Positions 2,321 through 23,946 of a stretch of 64,000 bases of DNA are shown piece by piece (position 1 is the stretch's first letter; every line of letters starts with the position of its first letter). A program made the translations under genes and the position numbers. The stretch is taken from NCBI RefSeq assembly GCF_037042905.1, contig NC_087250.1, positions 9,550,001-9,614,000 of the forward strand, written 5' to 3'. A model generated the notes under the pieces. That model saw nothing but the letters and a program-made list of their open reading frames with translations. It made no database searches and had not been told where the DNA came from. Source of the stretch: Lytechinus pictus (lineage: Eukaryota).

Positions 2321-2451
2321 GAAGCAGTCTCCTGAGCATTGTTGTTTGCCCAGATTCTGATCACTCTTGAAGAAGGGGTCTGCGCACGTAGCTCCGTCAA
2401 AGTAGTCGTTCTCACTGTCACATGTCCAACAGTGGTAGGCTGACGTGACAC
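2321..2451 (-). CDS. Ly6/uPAR-like gene A, second coding exon (GVTSAYHCWTCDSENDYFDGATCADPFFKSDQNLGKQQCSGDCF)
   Basis: cag| acceptor and |gtaagt donor, 131 nt (phase 1 to 0). CxxC start, 5 Cys, ends in C-F like genes B and C. No terminal exon found in 1-2320, so it probably lies left of the window. Confidence 0.85.
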
Positions 2452-3115
2452 CTGGGAGGTGACGTAAAGATTAGTTTTATGTGTGACGTCATATGCAAGC
2501 AGCTGCTCCATACATTGTACGATATAGAGATACGCTTGAATGAAAAGTTGACTATGCATGGCATTGGGTTGGTTCTTGTATAAATAGAGAAAATATTGAA
2601 AAAAATGTGTTGGTGAATGTGTGATGAAAATCAATTCAAAAATTATAAACTTCTTTTTATTCGTGACGTCATATGCGAGCAGCTGTCCATACCTTGTATG
2701 ATGCAGAATTATGAAAATAATGAATATGATTAATTTTGCTCTAGAAGGGTGATGAAATGTTGTGTCTAATTATTAATGCTCAGCAGAAATAAAATCACTT
2801 TCAATTTTTTAAGAATGCATTTGGGGAATTTCATATCGCACGACGTAAGAACGAGAAGTTTGTTTTTGATGTTGAAGAGTAAAAACTTTTAAAAATCATA
2901 ATTCCGATATTCTTTGACGGAATTTTATCAAACCTTTAATGAACTTTTTGTTAGGAATACTTCCCCATGAATATAAGTTCTATAATTATTACCGAAAGTT
3001 ATATTTTTCTGAAGTATTAATGAATTATTTGTTAAAGTTTAGGTAAACGGGCATCTAAACACAACAAATTATTAATGTCATTATGATTATCATATCATCT
3101 TAGAGAATAACTTAC

Positions 3116-5938: not shown

Positions 5939-8158
5939 AACTGTCACATACAAGACATATGGCCTACTGTAGTTTTTTTTGTAGTCACACGCACAAAAAC
6001 ATCCTACAACCTGACACCCACTAATAAATATCCACCCATTTTCTTATAACCCACTCACACTTACACACTAAACACCCACACAATATCCGTATACTTCGAC
6101 GCACGTACACTGTATATCCTCTCCACAAGCTGATACAAGTGACAAGTAATAATGTCCTTATTATTAGTTGACCAAAAAAAAATCCTTACACCCTAACACA
6201 CACCCACATATAACCACAACACACTAACATCCTATCAACCCACACCCATCGTCACATCCCACCACTGGAACACACACTCTCGGTCACAACACATACAGAA
6301 TAATTATAGACTATCTGCACAAAATGATGTAACGAGTGGTACATTATTGTGTCTCATGCGTCTCAGTTAGTGAAGTTCCCCTCGCAATCATATTCTAATA
6401 CTCACGCACACCCTCACACACCACTTTTTTTTTCAACATGTGTTTATTAAGGATTTCATTCAAATGGATTACATAAACTCCAAATAAATACAAAAAAAAT
6501 TACAAATCTTCATTTTATATCAACAAGGATATGCAAAAAAAAATACATATATATTTACCAAAAGCTGATGCAAATAAGGACGGAATGAAAATTCCTTAAA
6601 AAATATACTTTTATATCTACTTTTATATCTTGAAAAATATACTTTTATATCTAAAAAAAAATAATAATAATAACTAAACTGAGCCACACATACACTCAAA
6701 CGCCGACTCACACACGTACTCTCACAGCCTCCACAATAAATTTGCATTGTAACCCTAATCCTAACCCTACATCTTAGACAAAATTAAGCCTGGAGCAATT
6801 GTCGTAGGAGCAAATGTCGTGGCACCCACGTAATATAGGCACACGCACACGGCTTGCCCCCAAATATATTTTAAACGAACACCATCGTGAAAAATTTCAC
6901 CAATTTACAAACCAGTAGACAAACAAATTTTTCACGATAAATCAAATCAGAAATGTAGGAGATGTTGTAGTATGTACAAATTTTATTCCTACAAAAATGT
7001 CATTCATCATTTTTGTTCTTTGGTTTTAATACATGTCAATACAAAAACACATTTGATGATAGAAATACAGACCTTCCCTTAATATCTATAGTTAATTAAC
7101 ACTTTATACATGGTTGTAAGAACCGCAATGGTCCTACAATAATGTGTTAAGTAATGCAGTACCTACAATCGATAAACTTAACGTAACGAAAACTACATTA
7201 TCTTAATAATCGTAATATTTTCTTAGTTGCACTATAAGTAATAGAACAATAGAAATTGATTAGAAAAGCGTAGATAATACCTCAGAATATCAATTTTTAC
7301 AACACTCAAAGTATAAAATTACTGGTAATACGATTTTTTTAAATATCTTTTTAATTGTTCACTAAGAAAAAAAGGGAAGGAAATTGTGGGTTTCAGTTAG
7401 GTGAGATATTCGTAATAATAGCAATGTATATGTACAGCAAAATTTCAGAGTAATATCATCTATTCTTAATTATATACATGTTTGTCGAAGTACATTTCGG
7501 ACTTTCATGGGGAAATAATCTGGCTCATCCTTTCGTAATATTATCTTCATCTGTTAGTAATGATTAATATTTTTTCTCAAATTCATTTATCATTTCTCAC
7601 AAAACACAAGACATCTAATATACCACCCCTTTGAATGAAAAATACCGCACATTACGCATACACATAATTTGCATCAGTCGTTATCTTCGGTATATGGTGA
7701 AAATTTGTATAGACAGTTCGTCTGATTTAAAGTGCTAAACATGTCACATGATTAAGTCTCATATCTTATACCATCATGACTATTATTGCTATAAAATGTT
7801 TAATAAAATAAAGTACATCGCATGCACCAGACTACCAAAAAAAAATTGTTTTTTTTTACATATATCACAGATGCTCCCTATGTAATATTTTTCTCGGAAT
7901 GTCAACATAAATGATACCATGAAAAAGAATGTGAGCGAAATATATATATTCCATGATAAAGAAATGCTATGGCAGCATGATTAATTGGCATTGTAAACCT
8001 TTACCAACATGATGAAGTTTAGGAAAGTAAATGAAATAAAACAAAAAACCCTAAAAAATAATGGTAAATGATTTATGATTTATCGATATAGCAAGTTTCA
8101 TTTACTAAATTGTCACGTTTATAACAATTTTGCATGAATTGGTTTTGAGGATTGTTAA

Positions 8159-8742
8159 AGGAGAATGAAACTCTTGGAACAAGTTAGCTTTTGTGAAAGA
8201 AGAAAAATCTAAGAATAAGATCAACAAAAGTTTGAGTTAAATAGGACTAGCAATAGAAGAGTTATGAGCATTTGAATGTCGAGATCACTAATGCTATGGA
8301 GATCCTCTCATTGGCAATGCGACCAAGATCTATGATGTAACAGATGAACAACTCTCCCCTTTTGGACACTGAAAATATACCCCAAAACATCTCTTTTTGC
8401 TCATTCTAATCTAATGACAAACGATTCATCAATGATATAATGTTGTGAAACCTCTGTACTTGTCCTCTCATAAAGAGAACACCTCACCTTGTGATAGACT
8501 CCATAAAAGTGAGAATATAAGTGAAATAAGTACTAAAGTAATGAGGGAGTTGTACGTGTGTGACATCACAGATCTTGGTCGCATTGCCAATAGGAGGATC
8601 TACATGGCATTAGTGATCTCAATATTCAAATGCTCATAACTTTCTTATCATTCATTCAATCTTCCTCAAACTTTCAACAATATGTTTCTTTGATTTTTCT
8701 CTTTGATATGGATTCAGCTGGTTTCAAGGGTTTCATTCTTCT
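8159..8742. mobile_element. TTAA-flanked MITE (Kolobok-like termini AGG...)
   Basis: ttaa|aggagaatgaaac ... gtttcattcttct|ttaa with subterminal inverted arms. Same family as 24710-25297. Confidence 0.8.
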
Positions 8743-9410
8743 TTAAGGAAACTTTAAGAAACTCTAAACATGAATTTTCTCATGGTGGTTTGCCATATTT
8801 AATACACATTGCATTTGTTTTTGCTTGAATAAATTATAAAAACAGACATACACACTGTTAGATTGAAGTAATAGATGACGCCTTTAAAACAGATGCTTCA
8901 TGAAATTAGGTTATCTAAAACAATGCTAATGGCGATGTGCTATCAACCAAAGAACTTACTGGAAATTATGAATATTATATTCACACTTGTACATGCCTAT
9001 TCGTTCTACACGGTAAAAAAAAAATATTATAACTGATCTGAATATGCAATCTGCTTTGAAATAATGATCAGTAATTTGAGTGCAGAAGTAGATGATTCGG
9101 TTTGGTAATGTTTTCATTATTCTCCGATTAGAGTCAATCTGCTTATGATGACAATCCTTCTCCTGCAAATTGTGAATATCATATAATAATTTGGTAGTTA
9201 ATAATTTTTGTCTAGAATTATTTTTATTTTTTTAGTACACTTTATTTATGATTCATGCCAAAAATGTTAACATATTATGTTTATTATGTTATGGAAAATG
9301 TATTATACGAATGTTCCATGGATGCAGAAGAAAACAATAAATCAAATCAAATCAAAGGTTTCTGATATTATAAATTTCTTGTTTTTAAGTGAACAGTGGT
9401 ATATTGTGTG

Positions 9411-9579
9411 TATCAACACCATACTAACAGTTCTCATATCAGGAATCTCGTTATAACGAGAGCAAGGTATCAACACCGTAGTAACGGACCCCCCCCCCTT
9501 AGGAATGTTGTTATAACGAGAGCGATCTATCAACACCGTAGTAAAAAGGCCCCTATTAGGAATGTTGTTATAAGGAGAG
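9411..9579. repeat. Degenerate tandem repeat, ~57-60 bp x3
   Basis: tatcaacacc(g/a)ta...aggaat...gttataa(c/g)gagag at 9411, 9468 and 9528. Confidence 0.8.
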
Positions 9580-9745
9580 TGAGGTTGATCCGAACTGGAG
9601 CTGATCCATTGCAGAGGTTGGCGAAGCAGCAGGATTCGCAGAGCTGATGGTCCGGTTCTCCGTGACATGTTGGTTGGCACTCGGTCTTTCTTGCGGTACA
9701 GCCTCTAGAATAGTGGACGTTGCCGTAGTGGCTGACCTTCTGACT
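9530..9745 (-). CDS. Ly6/uPAR-like duplicated terminal exon 3b (SQKVSHYGNVHYSRGCTARKTECQPTCHGEPDHQLCESCCFANLCNGSAPVRINLTLLITTFLIGAFLLRC*)
   Basis: gacag| acceptor, phase 0, 216 nt open to TGA. Aligns without gaps to exon 3a through CCFANLCN. This frame is absent from the ORF track. Confidence 0.85.
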   Translation of the reverse strand, partial: SQKVSHYGNVHYSRGCTARKTECQPTCHGEPDHQLCESCCFANLCNGSAPVRINLTLLITTFLIGAFLLRC

Positions 9746-10873
9746 CTGTCGGGTTCCAATGAGGTATGTTGCCAGGAATGGTGGTAGCGGTGTGATACCA
9801 GTGGTGCATGGTGGAGGTTACAAGAGCAGATTATGCGGTGTTGGTTGGCAGATTAGGAAGTGGTTTAGAGGCAATGGTCGTTGAAACGACAGTAGTTTGG
9901 TGTTAGTAGTGGCGGTGCAAGGGGATGGAAATTGCAGGATTTGCAAAGTTGGAAGAGGAGCCATGGGAGCATTGTTGTCACAAAGTACGTGGTGTTAGCA
10001 GAGTAGTTATGGTGGTAAAGGATCAGTTGCCATAGATGAGGTGGTGGTAACAGTGATGCATGGTGGTGAAGATGGTGTTGGTGTTGCCGTTATCAGTAGT
10101 GGAATCAACGATGTAAGGTTAGGTCTCGGATTAGGTGATGTTGGTGGAAGTTGTGCAACGGTGGCAAAAGTATTAGTGGCAGTGATGGTGGTAGTGATGG
10201 TGGTTAAGGTTGTGTTGTTATGGCAATGGTAGTATCAGTGGTGGTGGGGTGATGGAGAACGATATTTTGCGTTTTAATAATGTTGTAAATATCATTATAT
10301 TGGAAAATGGTGGTAGCGATAGAGAAAGAATGTGTGGCGATAGTGAAAGAGCATTCGGTTTGTAGTTGTGTGGCAGAGAGCGTTTTTGTTGAAAGGTGAG
10401 GGAATGGATAATAATTGGTTGCGTTGACAACAGCGGGATCATCAAGTTGTTCAAAGAGGGGAAGGGCGGGTAAAACAAAATGGGTTTATGAAATGCAGTA
10501 CAACCACATACATGCAGAATGCCAATGGAATGCGTGTGTCAAGAGAGATGAGAAATAGATAGAAGGAATTTAGGAATGAGACGGGTCAATATACACCACA
10601 ATGATTTGCATTATTACATGTTATTCAAATAAGTGTAAATGGATTAGTAGGGGAAAGCAAAGAGGAAATAAAAAATCAATAAACCATGATGCAATCACAG
10701 CCCTTGTCAATCTTTATATTTAACCAATCACCTTATCGTTTTGATGATTTACATCAATCTATTATTTGCATATTTCTAAAGATGTTCAAACGAACTTATA
10801 AAGTTCTAAAGATCAGAACCAATGTTAGAGGAATGATTCGAACAGAAAAGGCACAAAAAGGCAAGTATGTGTT

Positions 10874-11095
10874 CTATAAAACAAAGACTACAGTGAATAA
10901 AGCCACGGCGAGAGAAAAGATATAGAAGACGTTGTTTGGGGTCAAATGTCTTGCACTGTTACAAAGGTTGGCAAAGCAGCAGGTTTCACAGATTCTGTAA
11001 TTATCTCCATCATAGCATAAATTCTGGCATTCGGTCTTTCTCTTGGTACATCCACGGGCTATTATCGTTTTATCCTCAATGTTCATGACTTGTTT
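10874..11095 (-). CDS. Ly6/uPAR-like gene B, terminal exon 3a (KQVMNIEDKTIIARGC...CETCCFANLCN + hydrophobic GPI-type tail)
   Basis: tgcag| acceptor, phase 0, 222 nt to the stop. RGC and CCxxxLCN LU-domain motifs, hydrophobic C-terminus. Spliced protein is 127 aa. Confidence 0.88.
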   Translation of the reverse strand, partial: KQVMNIEDKTIIARGCTKRKTECQNLCYDGDNYRICETCCFANLCNSARHLTPNNVFYIFSLAVALFTVVFVL

Positions 11096-12165
11096 CTGCA
11101 CCAGGCCGAGTTTTGTTACCGAATGGGCCGATACAAGCAAGGGCCGAGTTGGAAAGTAGAAGAGTTTTTAAAACAAATATATCAACATGGGTTGATTTGG
11201 AGTGTTGGATTATAAAGAAATGTGGGACACAAGTCGTCGTTTTGAGACATGGCAAAAATGTCGACCGAACCACAATAAGAGAGCATTTAGTAAATGTTTT
11301 ATTTCCGAATATAATTTCGCAATCACAAAAAAGAAAACGATTATTAAATAGTCGGTAAAACCTTGATTGATGTTATTGATTATAAAGAACAATGATAATA
11401 ATTTATTTTTTAAAATCAGTATCACAAAATCAATGAAAAATACACGTACAGGAAAGAATTGAATGATGTCTTTCAAAATATAATAACCAAGAAATCTTGA
11501 TAAAATGCAAAGCAATACCATTTATATAGAAAAGGGGAAATTTAGTAAGAATAAAATTCAAATAATATAATAGATTTCAGGTCATTTTAATGGGCAAAAA
11601 TGAAAGCAAATGACAGATCATTTGGATTTTTTCAAATTGAAGAATCCAAGTAAGCAAGAAGACATTAAATGAATTTGGAGAAAAGGGAGAAAAAATGAAG
11701 AAATCAGTTAATATATATTTTTACAGTATTTATATCTTGATAAACCTCATTCACCTTTGTAAAAAAAAACATTTGAAGCGAAATAGATAGCAAGTTAAAA
11801 CTAAAATATTGTTTAATTTTATGTTAATGACTTCAAAATCTTCCTTTTCAGAAGTACGTCTTATGCTTGTTTAATTGTTCTCTTTTGATTCAAATCAATA
11901 TTTTCTGGGATGGACTTGTCTTATGACCAACCAATTTGGAACTTTTAATAGGTTATTTATAAAACCGTTTGAGGTTGTTTAGCAAGTAAAGAACATTTGG
12001 GTTCCAAATACGGGACAAAAGGGTTCAATTTCACCCTTTTATCCAAGAGTGTAGGTTATACTTCCTCAATTGTTAGAATTGATTCTGGAATTAAAACACC
12101 TAACTAGGCCAAGTGTGGAAAATACAAACTTCTTTGCTCTCTTTACGTCATTACGTCATACTTAC

Positions 12166-12281
12166 GAAACAAAGAGATGTGTAATCGTCACATTCTGTGA
12201 TGTAAACACCGTCCTCCAAGGTGTTTGGGGTTGCACAATTTGCACCGGAACACTTGTAGCACCAGAGGGCGTCAGATACAC
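12166..12281 (-). CDS. Ly6/uPAR-like gene B, second coding exon (GVSDALWCYKCSGANCATPNTLEDGVYITECDDYTSLCF)
   Basis: tttcttttaag| acceptor, |gtaagt donor, 116 nt (phase 1 to 0). LxCYxC motif typical of the LU-domain start. Confidence 0.88.
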
Positions 12282-12992
12282 CTTAAAAGAAAGGGGGAAA
12301 CGGAAAACAATGAACCGCGCCAAATGAATAGTTTCAAATACATCAAGTTGTTGGCAAATATGTGAGGGTACAATTAGTTTTTTCTTAATTCTAAAGTCCT
12401 ATTTTGTGAATTTATTAAAATTGCTATTTCATTGGAAAAATTCTCACTGGTCATTCCTCTTCAGTTCTTGGCATCAAGCAGTCAAGACGGAGGTGGGGAC
12501 TCCTCCCCTAATAATCATACATATATATTTTTGTGGGGTGGGGATATTTTAAACAAATGCATCTAAAAATTGCCACAGTTACTCTTTAATTAAATAAAAA
12601 AAAACATCTTTGGAACATATTTTCTGGATGACCCAACCCTACAAGCATACTGCTTCCATGGGCATCAAATTTTCCAAATATGTATATATAAAACGACGTA
12701 TTTTGCATTTATTTAAAAGTATGATACGTCATTTGTATAATTTCCCATTTTTATACTTTGTAATATTTGTATATTTTTTATTTTGAATGGTTTTTAATGA
12801 GAAATAAAATACAAATTCAAATTATGTTACTTTTCATGTTATTTCACAATAAACCAAAGCCTTGACATTCATTTTTTTTATTTATCCCCCCAAATAATAA
12901 TGAAAATGTGGGATTAAAATATTCGTATTATATGAAATTTTAATTAACCCAGGCAACAAGATGTAAAATGAAATAAATTTTGATATAATTAC

Positions 12993-13038
12993 CAATGGTG
13001 ATGCATAACACAGCTGCAATTATTAAATACTTCATCAT
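12993..13038 (-). CDS. Ly6/uPAR-like gene B, signal-peptide coding exon (MMKYLIIAAVLCITI-G)
   Basis: ATG at 13038, phase-1 donor G|gtaatt, acceptor atttcag| at 13059. Similar to the gene A leader (MKY...). Confidence 0.8.
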
Positions 13039-16000
13039 ATTCTCTGATAAGATGACGCTCTGAAATAGAATTGAAAACAACATAATTAATATACAAATTA
13101 TTTTCAAATAAAGTAATCTTACTCCGAAATAAGAATAGTTTAACTTTACTCTAAATATTGCAAGTATTTGAAAATAAATCCAGGTGGACATTAGTTGTTT
13201 TACGCATTAATCGAATTTTGGATTTACTTTTAAACCTACCAATCTATTTTCAAATCTAAAGGGATTTGAAATTGAATCCTTTGAGATAAAAAAAAATGGA
13301 TTAGTCCCTAACTACAGTCCACATGGATTTATTTTAAATCCCTGCAATCCCATGCACAGATAATCATAAACATGCTCTTCCTCGTACGACTGAAATCAAC
13401 AGTACTCCATGGAAAGAGATTCCCCAAGAGTTGCCACTTGAGATTAACTTTATTTTTTCATATAGGCCTATTTATTTGTTTTCATATATATATACATTGA
13501 TCGTTTGATACCAAACAGAAGTTTCGTATCATAGTTCACATTATTAGCGTAGCCTATATTCAGGAGTAATTTCATACTATTGTAATAATAGCAGGGCCCA
13601 CTGGTAGAACAGTTTTTGGAACTGAAGTGGCTTCCCTGGGTAAATATACCTATATTATTATTATTATATCATTATATTGTCCGATAATTAAGTCACTGAT
13701 ATATTATAAGATGTAATTCCTACCTTTTTTTTCTTCAATTTTTCAATTCAAGTAGACGATTATTTTTCTTGCAATTGGCAATTGTCATATAAAGTATACA
13801 AATCGATACAATAGTAGAAAGATATTGGTTGAATGACAACAATGTACATGGGGGTGAAACAGATCCAGTCATGTTATTCACTGGTACGGAGTGGAAATGC
13901 CAACCAAAGATGTTTATGAATTGGTTAATATTTAACCAGCTAGACGCTGTTTGTGTACATATTGACTCATTGTGCGACAATCTCCGATACACGCTATGGA
14001 CCTCAGATAACTCAAACTGGGATTGCATATCTTTATGAATTAGTATGTTCGGGCAATGATTAATATGAGATAGGAAATGAAATCCGAATAGATACCTATA
14101 TTAATGAATCAATGGAAACTCCAATCCTCAACCTGACCAGATTCCCAACCCACACTCTACGAATCAACATGATCAAGGATTTAAAATAAATCCAGATCGG
14201 CTGTGGATAGTGACCAGCCGAGTGTTGGATTTATTGTAAATCTTTAGGATTAACTTTCAAATCAAAATTCAGATTTATATTGATATCTACAAGGTTTAAA
14301 ACTAAACCTTGTATTCGGCTGGCTACTATTTACAGCCGATCTGGATTTGTTTTAAATCCTTTACTTTAAGAGTGCATGATATAACATTCTGAGCAGTAAA
14401 TCTACGAGCATTATAGGCCCATTCGAATAATAACACACGAATTCAATACTCGATGCATTCATACTGTATATGATACAGAATTACACACACACACAAACGT
14501 CCAGGTCACATTTTTTTACAATTTGCATTAAAGTAATTGATTGACATTACACAAAATAATATATTTGATTAGAATAAAAAATATTAAGTATCATTGAATG
14601 TTTACCTCTTTCTCTTTAATAAAGAATATTAATTTACACAAAACTCATTCAGGTCATATTATACCACCTTGTAATACACTCTAAAAACAATATCATAAAT
14701 CTCTCACCTGCACTTGCACCCACTAGCACACACTTCATTTTTCAATTTCTACTTTTTTCCCGTTCTTTGATGATTCGCGACATTAATTTTTTTTTCTTAC
14801 AGACACAATTAATTTCTTAGGTTTCCATGTAGCCTTCCCTTTTTTGGCTGCTATGCTTCAAGCATATATTTGCTTATATAGTTTGCCTCTGCATTTTACT
14901 TATGAAGCTTTATTTTCTATATTGTATTTATGTCTTTCTTCAGTCACTATATATACGGTTGTCACTTGGTTATGTACTTTATGCTATATTATGATTATGT
15001 CTCACGCATTGTATATTTGTTTTGTATATTATTCCAATAAATGCAGAAAATCCTGCAAAAAAGAACTAATCAGGGGTGCGTTTCATTAACATTTATGTCC
15101 GACAAGTTGTCAGATCTGACAACTTTCCCTGATTCTGATTGGGTGAGAGGTACTATTATTATGGTAATTGTCGGATAAAACAGGACTTGTCGGATAAAAT
15201 CCTTTCATGAAACGCTCCCATGGTCCCTAACCACACTTCTCTCACAGTGAGACAAGGGTCTAGTCTTTTTGGAGAGGGGTTTAATCTTTTGAGAGTGGAT
15301 TTAACTCTTTTTAGAGTGAAAATATAAGAAATACATTATACAGACATTATTCACTCCAGAAGGAGCTTAAATTCACTTTCAAACGATTTGAATCCCACTC
15401 CTAAATGACTGGTCCCTCGTCTCTCTCTGAGAGGAGTGTGGAACCAGATTAGCTATTTTGCATTTAGAGTGCAGAAAATATTTTTAAAACAATCTTACAA
15501 ACAAGGGATAGGGAAATAACAAAGTTATCAGTAAAATCCGTAACGTCATCATGTGTAAGTGTAATTTGTCTTTTTTTTTCTCGCCTTATCTTCTATTCTA
15601 TTCTATCTTCTGTGTTTTTGCATTGTGAGATGATGTGTGGGTGTGTGTGTTTATTTATAACCTTTTTTTACCCGTTATGATATTTGTGTATTTGTAGGGC
15701 CCCGGCTATATTAAGCAGCCTTGCTTCTTAGGGGTCCTGACCATTAAGTCATGTGTAACCTGTTATATTTTGTATTAGTTTGTTTGTATCATGTTATTTT
15801 TGTAAATATTTTGATGTCTTTTTTTTTACGGTCAATAAATTGAATTAAAATTGAAATTTAATTGAAATTGAATTGTTTGTGTCGATTATAGTGATGGTGA
15901 CGATGATAATAATGAGCATTGGCTCTTAAGTGAAAGAGGTTAATTATATTACTTAAAATATTTACATATGTGATGTAATACAACCTTATATATTATGTAA

Positions 16001-17780: not shown

Positions 17781-20700
17781 ATAATAATGATAACGATAAT
17801 TACGACGATGATTATGATGTCTAAGATTATAACTGTAGTTGTAATGATGATAAGTAATAATAATGGTAATGATGACAATAAAGAATACATTACCACTGAT
17901 AATTTTAACAATAATCATGTGAAATTATATCATCAAAGTAGTTATGAATATAACTCCACATTCATGAAAGTTTAATTATATACCTTCTATATGATTATAC
18001 ATGCCGTATGTAGAAGCTTTGTTTAAATTTTTTTTTTTTTGGAAATGGGGTGAATTTTGTTGTGGAACCTAATGTAGATATGATTATTGAAATTCATGAC
18101 TTTGTGTAAAAATGATAATGATAAATTATATAAAAGAAATTCCTACATCACACCAGTATAAAAAGCCAATATATCCGTATTGTAAGCAGTATTCCCTCCA
18201 ATATACAGTAGATCTATACATGATGTGGATCTCGAATTGATTTTTTTTTCTGTTACTGTTTAGAAATAATGCACATTTCCTTCATACTAAGAAAACTATC
18301 GCAATTAATTTTACGGTATGCAAAACTTACCACATTTAGTCATATGTTGATGAACAATCCGAAACTGTTGCGATAAATTCCTCAAAAAAAGGATGGCTAT
18401 TTGAGAGCCGAATCTCAAACACACACACAAAAGATGATGCGTTCGTGAAATCGGTTATTGAACATTACCGCGGTCAGGCAACACTTGAAACCTGAAAAGA
18501 TTGTATATTCGTATTGGAAGCAGAACTTCACTACGTGCGGTTTATGCCCTGCAATCGTAGGTCAGGTTAATAAGTAAACTGTTGGGGCCAACGTATTGCT
18601 GGCGGCCGTCTGTTTGGATGAATTTTAAATATTTAAGACGTAGTCAAGTGGACCAACCGACGAACAGAGACTGAAGATTTCGGTCTAGGGCCAACAGAGA
18701 ACAAAAATAAGATTTAAATCGATCTCGTTCCTTGGGAAAACCTTAAAATGAATTTAAACTAAAAGGTTCATGGTGAAAACTCCTCTTGAAAAAAAAACAT
18801 TACTAGTACATGATAATCAAATGAAGTTTCGAATTTTTAGCCTGGTTAAGAATTCTCCAACTTTCTTTTATTTTTCTTTCTATCTGTAGTGGTCAATCAT
18901 TAATTGATTGATTTTATATCTAATTTATTTGTTTTATCATTTATCTATTCTATATATTCATTTCAAATTTGCAATTAATTTTTATTCATCTTTTTTTTGG
19001 GCCGCAGGATTTAGAATGCAACTCAATGTTTGATATACCAGCACCGAGTTCTGAATCCTTCGATGTACCATCTTGACTATATAACGCAGAGTGCAGCACG
19101 ATATGTGTTATAGGCCTACCTCACCCGCCATTTTTGTCTTTTTACCACTGATCATATATGCACACAGATCAATGCTTTTTATTAGCAGCTCAAAGTCTCG
19201 ATTTTGCTGGTTCCAAACCTATTTCTTTCCCCAATATGAATACCACAGCATAGTAAGAAGGTGATGCAAATAGCGGATAAGCGAAAAGAGTCAACAATGA
19301 TTCAGTCCATAACTGTGCGTCTAGATCAAACATATTCCTGATCGATTTCTACTCAACCTTAGAGGGCCATTGTCATATTTACTTTTGATTGGAATGCAAG
19401 TAAATAACAAGTAAAAAAAAGATCGGTCAAATCTTGTGCAAACCACACTGCTGAGATTTTTCTTAATGAAGGAAAACTTATGAGCTAGATAACTTCCAAC
19501 TTTACGAACCATTTTGATGATAATTCCAATTATTAGTCCTGTCTGAATGTTCTCTCTTAACTCATCATGTTGTTGGGATGGGTTTGGCATTCGAAAAGTT
19601 GATTGGTTTCATTACCCTGATACAAATCCAGTCAAACTTTCATTGCACTGTTCACCAGCCTTATATTCCCTTCCAAAAAAATCAGAAGTATACAAATTTG
19701 AATAAATAGCCAGAACGGCTTGGATTATGACGCTGGTATCGAACTTTTGATTCAGATTTGAAGCCTAAAACTTATTTCGGTAGCGGATTCCAAATCTTCA
19801 GACTCCAAACCTCTAAAGATCAAATCTAATCTAGATTTCAACGGCATGGTCATTATAGATTTCTTTAAATTTATATCACACTTTCCTTCATCTGATTCTT
19901 TTATTTTAGTATTTTGATTGTTTTCACACAAGCTATTTTGCTGCGGGGGTTTTATTCACCTTGAAATAATTTATGATAAGCCAGACTAACAACAAATCTA
20001 CACAACAACAAACACTTAGTTGATATGTCTTCATCAATTTATTCATTTACAGTATAAAACTAAAACCTCAAATCTAATTTGCATTTCATTATTTGGCAAG
20101 AAAGGGAAAAATGATTATTCCACATTCTGATCGAATTTGTTCTCCTCACTTCTACAAACTTCCGTAGATGGCGCTATTATACCAGCTAGCATGAGAGCAT
20201 AGTCTTCTGATCGGTTGTCATGTAGGTGTTTCATAAAAGTAATATGTTCGTAAGTTACGAACGATTTTACAAACGACTGGTTATATTTTCTTGTGGTAAA
20301 TTATGTGCACCGAATTCTCAGCTTGCAGCAGTAATTGGGAGGTGAGTGCGTAATTTGGAGGACGTATGGGAATATTATCCAAGAATCTGCACGAGAAATT
20401 ACTGTCTTACTTTAATTTTGCACAAGGAAAGAAACGTCAGTTGATAATCAGAATACAACTAAGCATATTAAAGGGCCAATTTTTATGGCAGTTGGGATAC
20501 ATAACGATAAAAACATATTATAGTAAAAAAAACCGCTGTTTAAAGATTTCATATAACGCTGTTTGCTAATTGAGCTTTGCAGTGGTTGATTAACAGTTTA
20601 AACAAACAAGTGTTAAAAATCGTAAACAGCAGTCTAATTAAATTTTTTTTTTTTTTTAAGTTTAAGCAAAGCTGTTTTCTTTATAGACATTTTTTTTTCG

Positions 20701-23064: not shown

Positions 23065-23271
23065 TCAGTCTCTCAAAATATTCTTTAGCGTTGCTAAACC
23101 GACCAATACGAACGTGAGAATCGGGAATGACGTCACAATTCTGGCTTCGTTACAGAGTGAATCTTGACAACAGGATCGACAGTCTTTATTGAAGCATGAC
23201 GAAGGGCAGTCGGTAGAGGGCTCACATCCGCGGTCTATAACTCTCTCGCCCAAGTAGCCGTACGTTGTTTT
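23065..23271 (-). CDS. Ly6/uPAR-like gene C, terminal exon (KTTYGYLGERVIDRGC...CRSCCQDSLCN + hydrophobic tail)
   Basis: ctctag| acceptor, phase 0, 207 nt to TGA. RGC and CCxxxLCN motifs, hydrophobic tail. Spliced protein is 136 aa. Confidence 0.88.
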   Translation of the reverse strand, partial: KTTYGYLGERVIDRGCEPSTDCPSSCFNKDCRSCCQDSLCNEARIVTSFPILTFVLVGLATLKNILRD

Positions 23272-23765
23272 CTAGAGGTGGAAAAGAAAATCGACATAAG
23301 ATTTTCTTTAAGTTATATAATTGATGCATAGTTAAGTCCGTTTAGTATTAAATCATTTGATAAGTAGGCCCTATTAAATAGGGGCTTCGTTTTGAGGGCC
23401 CTTTTTCAATTTGCGCTAAGGATTTACTCAGTCTCCCAGTCATTTTGGTCTAAGATTATCTATCTTTCTCCCTCTCTCTCTCTATTCATGCTTGTGTTTC
23501 TCTATTACATGTATTAAATTTACTTCATTAGGGTTAACTCCTACTTTTTCGAAAAAAGGGTTTATAAATACACGATTTCCACGTCCAAGGACCAGAACAA
23601 TGATAACAAACAAGAAATATTGTTTCATGAATAAATGTGTATAAAATTTTAAATGTTTTATTTTAATTCATTTACTTATGCATTCATTAATTCATTGTTT
23701 CCTATTACGCCCCCTTACTTGTGTTACATTATTAAATTAATCCAAAATGCATATAGATTACTTAC

Positions 23766-23902
23766 AAAGCAAAGTCCTCTGCATTCTATTTTAGAAACGC
23801 CCTCTGCGTTACCGTTAAATTCAGCGCCGCACTCAACCGTATCCGCCGAAGAGCACGCGTAGCATTCGAAGACACCAGAATAGGAATCTTCAGCTGCTAT
23901 CG
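23766..23902 (-). CDS. Ly6/uPAR-like gene C, second coding exon (AIAAEDSYSGVFECYACSSADTVECGAEFNGNAEGVSKIECRGLCF)
   Basis: ttttcag| acceptor, |gtaagt donor, 137 nt (phase 1 to 0). ECYAC motif, 5 Cys, ends in C-F. Confidence 0.88.
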
Positions 23903-23946
23903 CTGAAAAGAAAATGAAAAAAAAACATTGAACATAGATCTTAACT

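What the first reader, a model, noticed from the sequence alone, without database searches (positions are those of the whole stretch)
9530..13038. Three-finger protein gene with two tandem-duplicated, intact alternative terminal exons
Seen: one signal exon and one exon 2 are followed by two phase-0 last exons, 10874-11095 and 9530-9745. They keep all 7 domain Cys, RGCTxRKTECQ and CCFANLCN in gap-free register but differ strongly in the N-terminal segment (KQVMNIEDKTIIA vs SQKVSHYGNVHYS), the segment between the later Cys residues and the hydrophobic tail. I found no separate exon 1 or exon 2 between them. Inference: alternative last-exon splicing swaps the C-terminal half of a single LU domain, giving two GPI-type isoforms with a shared first finger and different second/third fingers. 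That would be a combinatorial way to diversify a three-finger surface protein. Exon 3b is invisible in the ORF track.
Basis: partly seen in the sequence, partly recalled or inferred. Interest (0 to 1): 0.85.

Follow-up and report, generated by a model that had tools for sequence, protein, structure and literature searches.

The report
Sea-urchin Ly6 gene, duplicated last exon
A sea-urchin gene for a small three-finger (Ly6/uPAR-like) surface protein carries two old, intact copies of its last coding exon; RNA shows the downstream copy in use, while use of the upstream copy is suggested by its conservation but was not seen.

Summary
On the minus strand, one signal exon (13059-12993) and one exon 2 (12281-12166) are followed by two paralogous phase-0 terminal exons, 3a (11095-10874) and 3b (9745-9530). 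No other exon 1 or 2 lies between them. Exon 3b is the canonical exon. E1-E2-3b matches a Lytechinus pictus RefSeq protein for 121 of 131 residues. It has 3b-type orthologues in Strongylocentrotus, Diadema and a sea cucumber. One spliced RNA contig carries the junction 12166->9745. Exon 3a is unannotated. The junction 12166->11095 was not seen in the one informative run, whose exon 2 contig runs unbranched into 3b. Even so, 3a looks selected. Synonymous sites between 3a and 3b are saturated, yet the Cys core is kept. An unnamed Logan ORF carries a 3a-type exon with 47/72 identical residues and no gaps, and that similarity stops at the acceptor. Best reading, about 0.5: an ancient tandem exon duplication, with 3a a minor or condition-specific alternative 3' exon that swaps fingers II and III. 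This would be a new member of a known kind. Moderate interest.

The parts
18331..18431 (-). Non-coding 5' exon (exon 0). Its 3' end (donor) is at 18331. The upstream limit is only a minimum, set by the 100 contig letters.
   Evidence: the X1 contig that holds exons 1-2 has 100 loose letters behind 13060; the first 30 of them match 18332-18361 exactly (0 of 100 shuffles match). GTAAGT follows on the minus strand.
12993..13059 (-). Exon 1: 5' UTR, ATG at 13038, signal peptide (MMKYLIIAAVLCITI), ends in phase 1
   Evidence: Joint 12991/12993 to 12279/12281 in the X1 contig. Identical to the N-terminus of P0003.
12166..12281 (-). Exon 2: first five Cys of the domain (finger I), ends in phase 0, donor GTAAGT
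   Evidence: 100% identical to L. pictus P0003 and 82% to S. purpuratus P0004.
10874..11095 (-). Exon 3a: unannotated upstream paralogue of the last exon (73 codons plus stop). It has 7 Cys and the hydrophobic tail VFYIFSLAVALFTVVFVL.
   Evidence: A 3a-type ORF exists in Logan protein P0005. Window 9716-11055 is covered by an unspliced X1 contig of mean depth 48.5. Window 11056-11095 is not covered and no junction to exon 2 was seen.
9746..10873 (-). Spacer between the two last exons: C/A-rich on the minus strand, with no exon 1/2 relic. The only canonical poly(A) hexamer is ATTAAA at 10278.
   Evidence: It is continuous with 3a and 3b in one X1 contig.
9530..9745 (-). Exon 3b coding part: the canonical last exon (71 codons plus stop)
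   Evidence: Joint 12166->9745 (GT..AG on the minus strand) in an X1 contig of depth 207.5; contig 9327-9745 has depth 209.5. RefSeq P0003. 70% identical to S. purpuratus P0004.
8750..9529 (-). 3' UTR of the 3b transcript. AATAAA at 9285, 9246 and 9228; ATTAAA at 8803. The distal limit is approximate.
   Evidence: X1 contigs 9327-9745, 9156-9347 and 8717-9164. Hexamers.
9441..9579 (.). 60-nt tandem repeat (2.4 copies, 81% matches) that overlaps the tail and stop codon of 3b

Best explanation
This is a four-exon gene for a small secreted, probably GPI-anchored, Ly6/uPAR-like (three-finger) protein. It belongs to Lytechinus pictus or a very close relative. Exon 2 encodes finger I, with the first five Cys. 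The last exon encodes finger II, finger III, the CCxxxxCN end and the GPI-type tail. That last exon was duplicated in tandem long ago.

The downstream copy, 3b, is the canonical, conserved and expressed one (shown). The upstream copy, 3a, lies in what is spliced out as the last intron. It has stayed an intact coding exon under purifying selection (shown by sequence comparison).

The inferred step is that 3a is used as a minor or stage/tissue-specific alternative 3' exon. The same exon 2 donor (12166) would be joined to the 3a acceptor (11095) instead of the 3b acceptor (9745). This would give a 127-aa isoform with the same signal peptide and finger I but different fingers II and III and a different GPI signal. 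X1 shows no break of transcription between 3a and 3b, and no AATAAA follows 3a. A 3a mRNA would therefore probably run on to the 3b poly(A) sites, which makes this a choice between two weak acceptors rather than between two poly(A) units.
For: Shown:
- E1+E2+3b is open (125 aa) and identical to RefSeq XP_054756901.1 for its first 121 of 131 residues.
- One X1 contig holds both 12281->12993 and 12166->9745 with GT..AG ends, at depth 207.5.
- 3b is 49/70 identical to the S. purpuratus protein. 3b-type ends occur in Diadema and Apostichopus.

Evidence that 3a is selected coding sequence:
- Between 3a and 3b, pS = 0.82 (saturated), while the core RGC..LCN has pN = 0.24. Identity by codon position in the core is 0.67/0.79/0.45. 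The flanks show no detectable similarity (upstream 118/200 and downstream 123/200 shuffles reach the score).
- phmmer of 3a against 1.84 billion representatives gave 3 hits at E<=0.001. The best is P0005 (E 5e-26), whose residues 51-122 are 3a-type: 47/72 identical without gaps, core 28/33, all 7 Cys, and the stop one codon away. Its first 50 residues, read through from the upstream sequence, barely resemble the window's intron (score 38 against 268 for the exon).
- The exon is thus conserved up to the CAG acceptor.

Evidence that exon 2 is the partner:
- 3a is in phase 0 like 3b, follows an AG, has no Met-plus-signal peptide of its own, and no other exon 1/2 lies nearby.
- The 3a body lies in an RNA contig (9716-11055, mean depth 48.5). 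The intron upstream has depth 0-5.
Against: - The junction 12166->11095 was not seen. In X1 the exon 1-exon 2 contig passes into 3b without a branch. The bin sums show nothing laid on 11056-11204, so the first 40 nt of 3a are uncovered. A 3a isoform at anything like depth 48 should have broken that contig at 12166.
- The depth of 48.5 is a mean over 1340 nt. It need not apply to 3a itself. It could come from an unspliced, antisense or internally started RNA.
- The three raw RNA runs have zero depth on all the gene's coding exons, so they say nothing.
- All four named proteins are 3b-type, and none is labelled as an isoform.
- A word-indexed search with 3a found no protein of 40-128 aa. That index also missed P0005, so it is weak evidence.
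- The species and the RNA or DNA origin of P0005 are unknown. Its ORF reads through the acceptor unspliced.
Confidence: 0.5

Rival explanations
1. 3a is an unused relic. The terminal exon was duplicated, only 3b is ever spliced in, and 3a is an intronic pseudo-exon that happens still to be open or was silenced only recently.
For: Only the 3b junction is seen in X1, with no branch at the exon 2 donor. All named proteins in four echinoderm species are 3b-type. The 3a acceptor has a poor pyrimidine tract. No AATAAA lies between 3a and 3b.
Against: Synonymous sites between 3a and 3b are saturated (pS 0.82), and the flanks have lost all similarity. Yet 3a keeps 73 open codons, all 7 Cys, two long motifs and a hydrophobic tail. 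A second 3a-type sequence (P0005) is 47/72 identical without a gap, with similarity ending at the acceptor. The 3b acceptor is just as poor in pyrimidines.
Confidence: 0.27
2. 3a is a translated exon, but it is served by other upstream exons or by a promoter of its own. That could be a nested or neighbouring gene, for example exons outside 8000-14500, and not exon 2 of this gene.
For: The X1 contig that holds 3a ends at 11055 and is not connected to exon 2. The window holds other Ly6-like genes on the same strand: 23921-23065, and an exon at 2452-2375.
Against: No exon 1/2-like sequence lies in the 1.07 kb between exon 2 and 3a or in the spacer. The gene at 23 kb has its own terminal exon. The stop-to-stop frame around 3a has no Met with a signal peptide. 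The contig ends at 11055 without any loose letters that would point to another exon (record 6 laid over its whole length).
Confidence: 0.1
3. The RNA over 9716-11055 is a separate non-coding or antisense transcript, or a partly retained intron. The conservation of 3a then reflects something other than translation.
For: Contigs carry no strand information. Coverage stops 40 nt inside 3a rather than at its acceptor and runs unspliced across the 3b acceptor.
Against: The conservation pattern is protein-like. Second codon positions are the most conserved and third positions the least. The Cys residues and the frame are kept, and the stop position is kept within one codon in P0005.
Confidence: 0.08

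Closest known systems
Medaka bouncer locus (Bncra / Bncrb), a Ly6/uPAR gene
   Same: One Ly6/uPAR locus with a shared first exon and two alternative downstream exons that give two homologous three-finger proteins. I read passages only (a figure legend) of PMC10267171: exons 1+3 give Bncra and exons 1+2 give Bncrb.
   Different: In the medaka alignment described there, each form has its own LU domain. Here the switch point would lie inside the domain, after the fifth Cys. Finger I would be shared and a disulfide would cross the switch point. Both medaka forms are annotated transcripts. Here only one junction is seen.
Human LYNX1 / SLURP-2
   Same: Two Ly6/uPAR proteins made from one gene by alternative splicing. 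I read one passage of PMC4971505, which gives about 32% identity between them. That is similar to the roughly 35-44% between 3a and 3b.
   Different: One human product is secreted and the other is membrane-tethered. Here both ends have GPI-type hydrophobic tails, and only the C-terminal part of the domain would be exchanged.
Tandem exon duplication-derived C-terminal substitutions (for example tropomyosin 3' exons)
   Same: Homologous, adjacent, same-phase exons of ancient origin that substitute for one another at the C-terminus. PMC9741552 (passages) counts 77 C-terminal events among 236 human tandem duplicated exon events and calls terminal events enriched.
   Different: Those events are defined by annotated transcripts for both exons. 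According to that paper, their terminal regions are often helices, coiled coils or disordered tails. Here the exchanged piece would be two-thirds of a disulfide-knotted domain, and the second transcript is unproven.
Canonical single-domain GPI-anchored Ly6 genes (CD59, Ly6, PSCA type)
   Same: Signal exon, an exon for the first finger, and a last exon for the rest of the domain plus the GPI signal. Also a C-x2-C start and a CCxxxxCN end. The gene structure and the CD59 disulfide map are recalled from memory, not taken from a call. The motifs are seen.
   Different: There are twelve Cys instead of ten, with an extra pair in finger III. No Pfam model reaches its cut-off. There are two last exons instead of one.

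Membership tests
Ly6/uPAR (LU, three-finger) domain superfamily | Cysteine framework: N-terminal C-x2-C, eight to ten or more Cys, and a C-terminal CC-x4-CN motif | tested here: met
   LWCYKC...CCFANLCN. There are 12 Cys in the mature part with either last exon. The same columns are invariant across the 7 aligned rows.
Ly6/uPAR (LU, three-finger) domain superfamily | Significant match to a curated family model (Pfam UPAR_LY6, UPAR_LY6_2, Toxin_TOLIP, QVR) | tested here: not met
   5 proteins scanned. The best match is UPAR_LY6_2 on exon 3b (E 0.012, 16.3 bits against a cut-off of 31.5). Toxin_TOLIP on P0004 gives E 0.39 (11.9 against 21.2). P0003, exon 3a and exon 2 matched no family.
Ly6/uPAR (LU, three-finger) domain superfamily | Sequence-profile relation to proteins of solved three-finger fold | tested here: inconclusive
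   profile of 7 rows against PDB sequences. All 25 sequences listed up to E 10 are receptor ectodomains of the BMP/activin type, Ly6/uPAR proteins or snake three-finger proteins. Only 6 are below E 0.01 (all BMPR1A-type, best 0.0067). LYPD6, PSCA and SLURP-1 score E 0.5-0.7. Atlas feature search: the nearest named clusters carry UPAR_LY6, QVR, Toxin_TOLIP or Activin_recp. That is a lead only.
Ly6/uPAR (LU, three-finger) domain superfamily | Three-finger beta fold | tested here: inconclusive
   The AlphaFold2 model of P0004 from a 7-row alignment has mean pLDDT 47.4 and pTM 0.24. That is too poor to compare, so no fold search was run.
Ly6/uPAR (LU, three-finger) domain superfamily | Signal peptide and C-terminal GPI-attachment signal (small residues after CN, a short spacer, a hydrophobic tail) | not testable with these tools
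   By inspection there is a hydrophobic N-terminus. The tails are NSA..VFYIFSLAVALFTVVFVL (Kyte-Doolittle 2.72) and NGSA..LTLLITTFLIGAFLL (1.73). No GPI or signal-peptide predictor was available and no experiment was done.
Tandem-duplicated alternative C-terminal exons | Two adjacent homologous exons in the same phase with intact frames | tested here: met
Tandem-duplicated alternative C-terminal exons | Both exons under purifying selection | tested here: met
   pS is saturated while core pN is 0.24. 3b is 70% identical to S. purpuratus. 3a is 47/72 identical to P0005, with the boundary at the acceptor. A codon-level test against orthologues was not possible because no DNA was available.
Tandem-duplicated alternative C-terminal exons | Both exons seen spliced to the same upstream exon in RNA | tested here: inconclusive
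   12166->9745 was seen and 12166->11095 was not, in 1 informative run of 4 laid. The other 3 do not express the gene. Contigs cannot show absence.

The most novel reading that the evidence does not exclude
One Ly6/uPAR gene makes two GPI-anchored three-finger proteins by exchanging a cassette inside a single disulfide-knotted domain. Finger I and five Cys come from the shared exon 2. Fingers II and III, seven Cys and the anchor signal come from either of two exons. Those exons separated before the sea-urchin/sea-cucumber split, if the weakly supported tree is right (support 81/85, 0 of 5 branches starred). One disulfide must form across the switch point in both versions. The unannotated 3a form would then be an old, conserved, condition-specific isoform that annotation pipelines in several echinoderms have missed.
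Probability: 0.45. Interest if true: 0.6.

Novelty: new member of a known kind. Interest (0 to 1): 0.4.

Why it matters
If 3a is used, this locus shows modular diversification inside one three-finger domain. The loops that usually carry binding specificity, fingers II and III, would be exchanged while finger I and the scaffold stay the same. Known Ly6 cases swap whole domains (medaka Bouncer a/b, LYNX1/SLURP-2). It would also add a conserved, unannotated coding exon to a model sea-urchin genome. The question is directly testable by RT-PCR. If 3a is not used, the locus is still a clean example of an anciently duplicated exon that stays open and conserved, and that would need another explanation. 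Either way the gene's function is unknown, and the family is small and unstudied in echinoderms.

Tried and rejected
- No RNA holder listed: the look-up of sequencing runs listed no holder on record as RNA. X1 was shown to be RNA only by its spliced contig.
- Raw RNA runs X11-X13, about 6 in 100 of each read: zero depth on every coding exon of the gene, so they were uninformative.
- A word-indexed protein search with 3a (40-128 aa) found nothing. The same index should have found P0005 and did not, so this blank carries little weight.
- A metagenome scan for related loci gave 124 pattern matches, none confirmed by tblastn. No orthologous DNA could be examined.
- The structure prediction was too poor to use, so no fold search was run.
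- I looked for relic exons in the spacer and the upstream intron, and for duplicated flanks. Nothing rose above shuffles.
- An eight-residue look-alike, QLCKSCNF at 9951-9928 (E 2.7), was judged to be chance in a low-complexity C/A-rich stretch.
- I looked for long-range complementary 'selector' pairs around the exons. There were 11 short, mostly AT-rich inverted pairs of 15-27 nt at 70-88%, none convincing.
- Earlier findings of this scan: nothing by place, by sequence or by words.
- Literature: no paper held both 'Lytechinus pictus' and 'Ly6' in a relevant sense (3 papers, all unrelated). The terms 'LU domain' + 'alternatively spliced' + 'exon 3' gave 1 paper, the medaka Bouncer work. I found no report of an intra-domain exon swap in a Ly6 gene. 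These are word searches of open-access text only.
Full report
**1. The observation**

On the minus strand, 10874-11095 and 9530-9745 each translate without interruption to a stop: 73 and 71 residues. In gap-free register they share RGCT.RKTECQ, CCFANLCN and all seven Cys. They differ in the first 13 residues, in the stretch between the later Cys residues, and in the hydrophobic tail. tblastn within the window gives E = 3.8e-15.

Each exon is preceded by CAG. Exon 1 (ATG at 13038, donor after 12993) and exon 2 (12281-12166) total 162 coding bases and end in phase 0. Either last exon therefore completes an open frame, of 127 aa with 3a and 125 aa with 3b.

No second exon 1 or exon 2 lies between the two last exons or in the intron above 3a. 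I tested this by tblastn at E<=100, by stop-to-stop ORFs and by local nucleotide alignment against 200 shuffles.

**2. RNA**

Of the 13 runs listed, I could lay four. The three raw RNA runs have zero depth on every coding exon, so the gene is silent there. X1, kept as contigs and only guessed to be RNA, proves to be RNA. One 314-letter contig (depth 207.5) holds two joints. These are 12281->12993 and 12166->9745, both with GT..AG ends on the minus strand.

That contig also carries 100 further letters that match 18332 onwards, next to a GTAAGT donor. The gene therefore has a non-coding 5' exon ending at 18331 and a 5.3-kb first intron. Contigs 9327-9745 (depth 209.5), 9156-9347 and 8717-9164 carry the 3' UTR past the AATAAA hexamers at 9285, 9246 and 9228.

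The junction 12166->11095 does not appear. The exon 1-exon 2 contig runs into 3b with no break at 12166, so no sizeable branch leaves that donor in X1.

A separate unspliced contig covers 9716-11055 at mean depth 48.5. That span is most of 3a, the whole spacer and the first 30 nt of 3b. The bin sums are fully explained by the listed contigs, so nothing is laid on 11056-11204. The rest of the intron has depth 0-5.3.

Some RNA therefore covers the 3a body well above the intron background. It is not joined to exon 2 in this run, its strand is unknown, and 48.5 is a mean that need not hold over 3a itself. Contigs show presence, not absence.

**3. Which exon is canonical**

A search with exon 2 found 2 proteins among 3 candidates:
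- a Lytechinus pictus RefSeq protein (P0003, 131 aa, 100% over exon 2);
- a Strongylocentrotus purpuratus protein (P0004, 124 aa, 82%).

P0003 equals E1+E2+3b for its first 121 residues. 3b is 49/70 identical to P0004, whereas 3a is 23/65. Further 3b-type proteins come from Diadema setosum, Apostichopus japonicus and an unnamed Logan contig.

So 3b, not 3a, is the conserved, annotated and expressed last exon.

**4. Is 3a a live exon?**

Between 3a and 3b, synonymous differences are saturated (pS 0.82 overall, 0.91 in the core). In the core RGC..LCN, pN is only 0.24. Identity by codon position there is 0.67/0.79/0.45. The 300 nt on either side of the two exons show no similarity above shuffles. 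The duplication is therefore old, and only protein-relevant positions have been kept.

phmmer of 3a against 1.84 billion representatives gave three hits at E<=0.001. The best, P0005 (E 5e-26), is a 122-aa ORF seen on three Logan contigs, the longest 1720 nt. Its last 72 residues are 3a-type:
- 47/72 identical without a gap, core 28/33, finger II segment 8/13;
- all seven Cys kept, and the stop one codon away.

Its first 50 residues are read through from upstream sequence. They align to the window's intron translation only weakly, with a gap and stops (score 38 against 268; 6 of 300 shuffles reach 38). Conservation thus begins at the CAG acceptor.

For comparison, 3b against S. purpuratus gives core 26/33, finger II 5/13 and tail 18/25. 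The species of P0005, and whether its contigs are RNA or DNA, are unknown.

A tree of the eight C-terminal halves (71 of 75 columns, none left out) puts the two 3a-type rows outside a group holding all five 3b-type rows, the holothurian ones included. Support is only 81/85, and 0 of 5 inner branches are starred. The dating is therefore tentative.

**5. Best reading**

A Cys-rich exon without a Met or signal peptide of its own can only be translated usefully if it is spliced to exons that supply the signal peptide and the first five Cys. The only such exons nearby are exons 1 and 2 of this gene, and the phase fits.

I therefore think 3a is most likely a minor or condition-specific alternative 3' exon (confidence about 0.5). 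X1 shows no break of transcription between 3a and 3b, and only an ATTAAA at 10278 lies between them. A 3a mRNA would probably end at the 3b poly(A) sites. The decision would then be a choice between two pyrimidine-poor acceptors.

Since exon 2 ends just after the fifth Cys, the exchanged piece would hold finger II, finger III, an extra Cys pair, the CCxxxxCN end and the anchor signal. The mapping of fingers to Cys positions follows the CD59 disulfide pattern, which I recall from memory and did not test.

Against this reading:
- the missing junction;
- the unbranched exon 2 contig;
- the uncovered first 40 nt of 3a;
- the absence of any 3a-type named protein in four species.

**6. Rivals**

- An unused relic (0.27). 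The single junction favours this. The saturated synonymous sites with kept frame, Cys residues and motifs, together with P0005, disfavour it.
- A translated exon served by other upstream exons (0.1). No candidates were found.
- A non-coding or antisense RNA with conservation unrelated to translation (0.08). The codon-position pattern argues against it.

**7. Family**

The Cys framework fits Ly6/uPAR. No Pfam model reaches its cut-off. The best is UPAR_LY6_2 on 3b at E 0.012, 16.3 bits against a cut-off of 31.5.

A profile of seven rows against PDB sequences listed 25 sequences up to E 10. All are BMP/activin-type receptor ectodomains, Ly6/uPAR proteins or snake three-finger proteins. Six are below E 0.01, the best being BMPR1A at 0.0067. 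That these share the three-finger fold is established knowledge, not a result from any call. Atlas neighbours point the same way, as a lead only. The AlphaFold2 model was unusable (pLDDT 47.4).

I file the gene as a divergent member of the three-finger superfamily, on motif and weak profile evidence. The fold and the GPI anchoring are untested.

**8. Comparison with what is known**

Passages of PMC10267171 describe the medaka bouncer locus. There, exon 1 is spliced to exon 3 (Bncra) or to exon 2 (Bncrb), each with its own LU domain. A passage of PMC4971505 states that LYNX1 and SLURP-2 arise from one gene by alternative splicing, with about 32% identity between them. Passages of PMC9741552 count 77 C-terminal substitutions among 236 human tandem duplicated exon events and describe most such events as ancient.

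The mechanism class is therefore known, within this family too. What would be new here is the switch point inside the domain, and an unannotated conserved exon in echinoderms. A table row in PMC13719153 (passages) lists 291 (42) three-finger entries for 7 echinoderm entries, and the text says their functions remain unclear. That paper does not mention splicing, isoforms or exons (0 occurrences of each term).

**9. Verdict**

- Novelty: a new member of a known kind.
- Interest: 0.4.

Noticed in passing
window 9543-9547 (T-run) and 9530-9560, minus strand: The RefSeq L. pictus protein P0003 leaves the window's frame after residue 121. It ends ...FYYGVDRSLSL, while the window reads ...FLLRC*. One T fewer in the T5 run would produce exactly this. 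The window's frame agrees with the S. purpuratus end (...LLLRC) and with the X1 contig 9327-9745, which has 0 differences. The RefSeq C-terminus may reflect an assembly error or a polymorphism.
   Followed up: partly
window 9441-9579: A 60-nt tandem repeat (2.4 copies, 81% matches) begins inside the hydrophobic tail of exon 3b and repeats the tail-plus-stop segment twice more in the 3' UTR. The frameshifted RefSeq end reads into the second copy.
   Followed up: partly
window 8155-8746: This is a heavily transcribed repeat. Depth reaches about 270-290 per direction (about 560 with both summed) in the raw RNA runs, and loose ends on both sides have low agreement, so there are many genomic copies. 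Reads join opposite strands at 8357/8546 and 8363/8540, which suggests a hairpin-forming element. Many differences are strand-specific A>G or T>C. For example, at 8612 A>G is 67/167 against 1/127, and at 8672 T>C is 59/184 against 2/176 in X11. A>G and T>C dominate all change classes. This looks like A-to-I editing of a double-stranded repeat RNA, though copy differences are not excluded.
   Followed up: no
window 23065-23921 (-) and 2375-2452 (-): There are further Ly6-like exons on the same strand. One is a separate gene with a first-finger exon (about 23921-23781) and its own terminal exon (23271-23065, CCQDSLCN plus a hydrophobic tail). The other is a first-finger-like exon at 2452-2375. 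The window therefore holds a small cluster of three-finger genes. Neither shows a second terminal exon by the CC..CN scan.
   Followed up: partly
window 12617-12773: A small one-directional pile of RNA reads lies in intron 1 of the gene (24, 12 and 9 reads in X11-X13, first mate on + only). All carry the same two differences (12628 A>G, 12639 C>T). A unanimous 30-letter loose end lies before 12617. This is probably an exon of another transcript or a paralogous copy elsewhere.
   Followed up: no
window 13583-13667: A short expressed repeat fragment has sharp loose ends on both sides and many variants, with depth about 15-46 per direction in its main bin (13425-13641) in the raw RNA runs. It lies in the 5.3-kb first intron.
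   Followed up: no
window 11140-11154 (-), upstream of the 3a acceptor: This is the only block of the upstream intron translation shared with P0005 (FPTRP). It lies about 45-57 nt before the acceptor in the window and about 31-45 nt before it in P0005. It could be a branch-point or splicing-control element, or chance.
   Followed up: no
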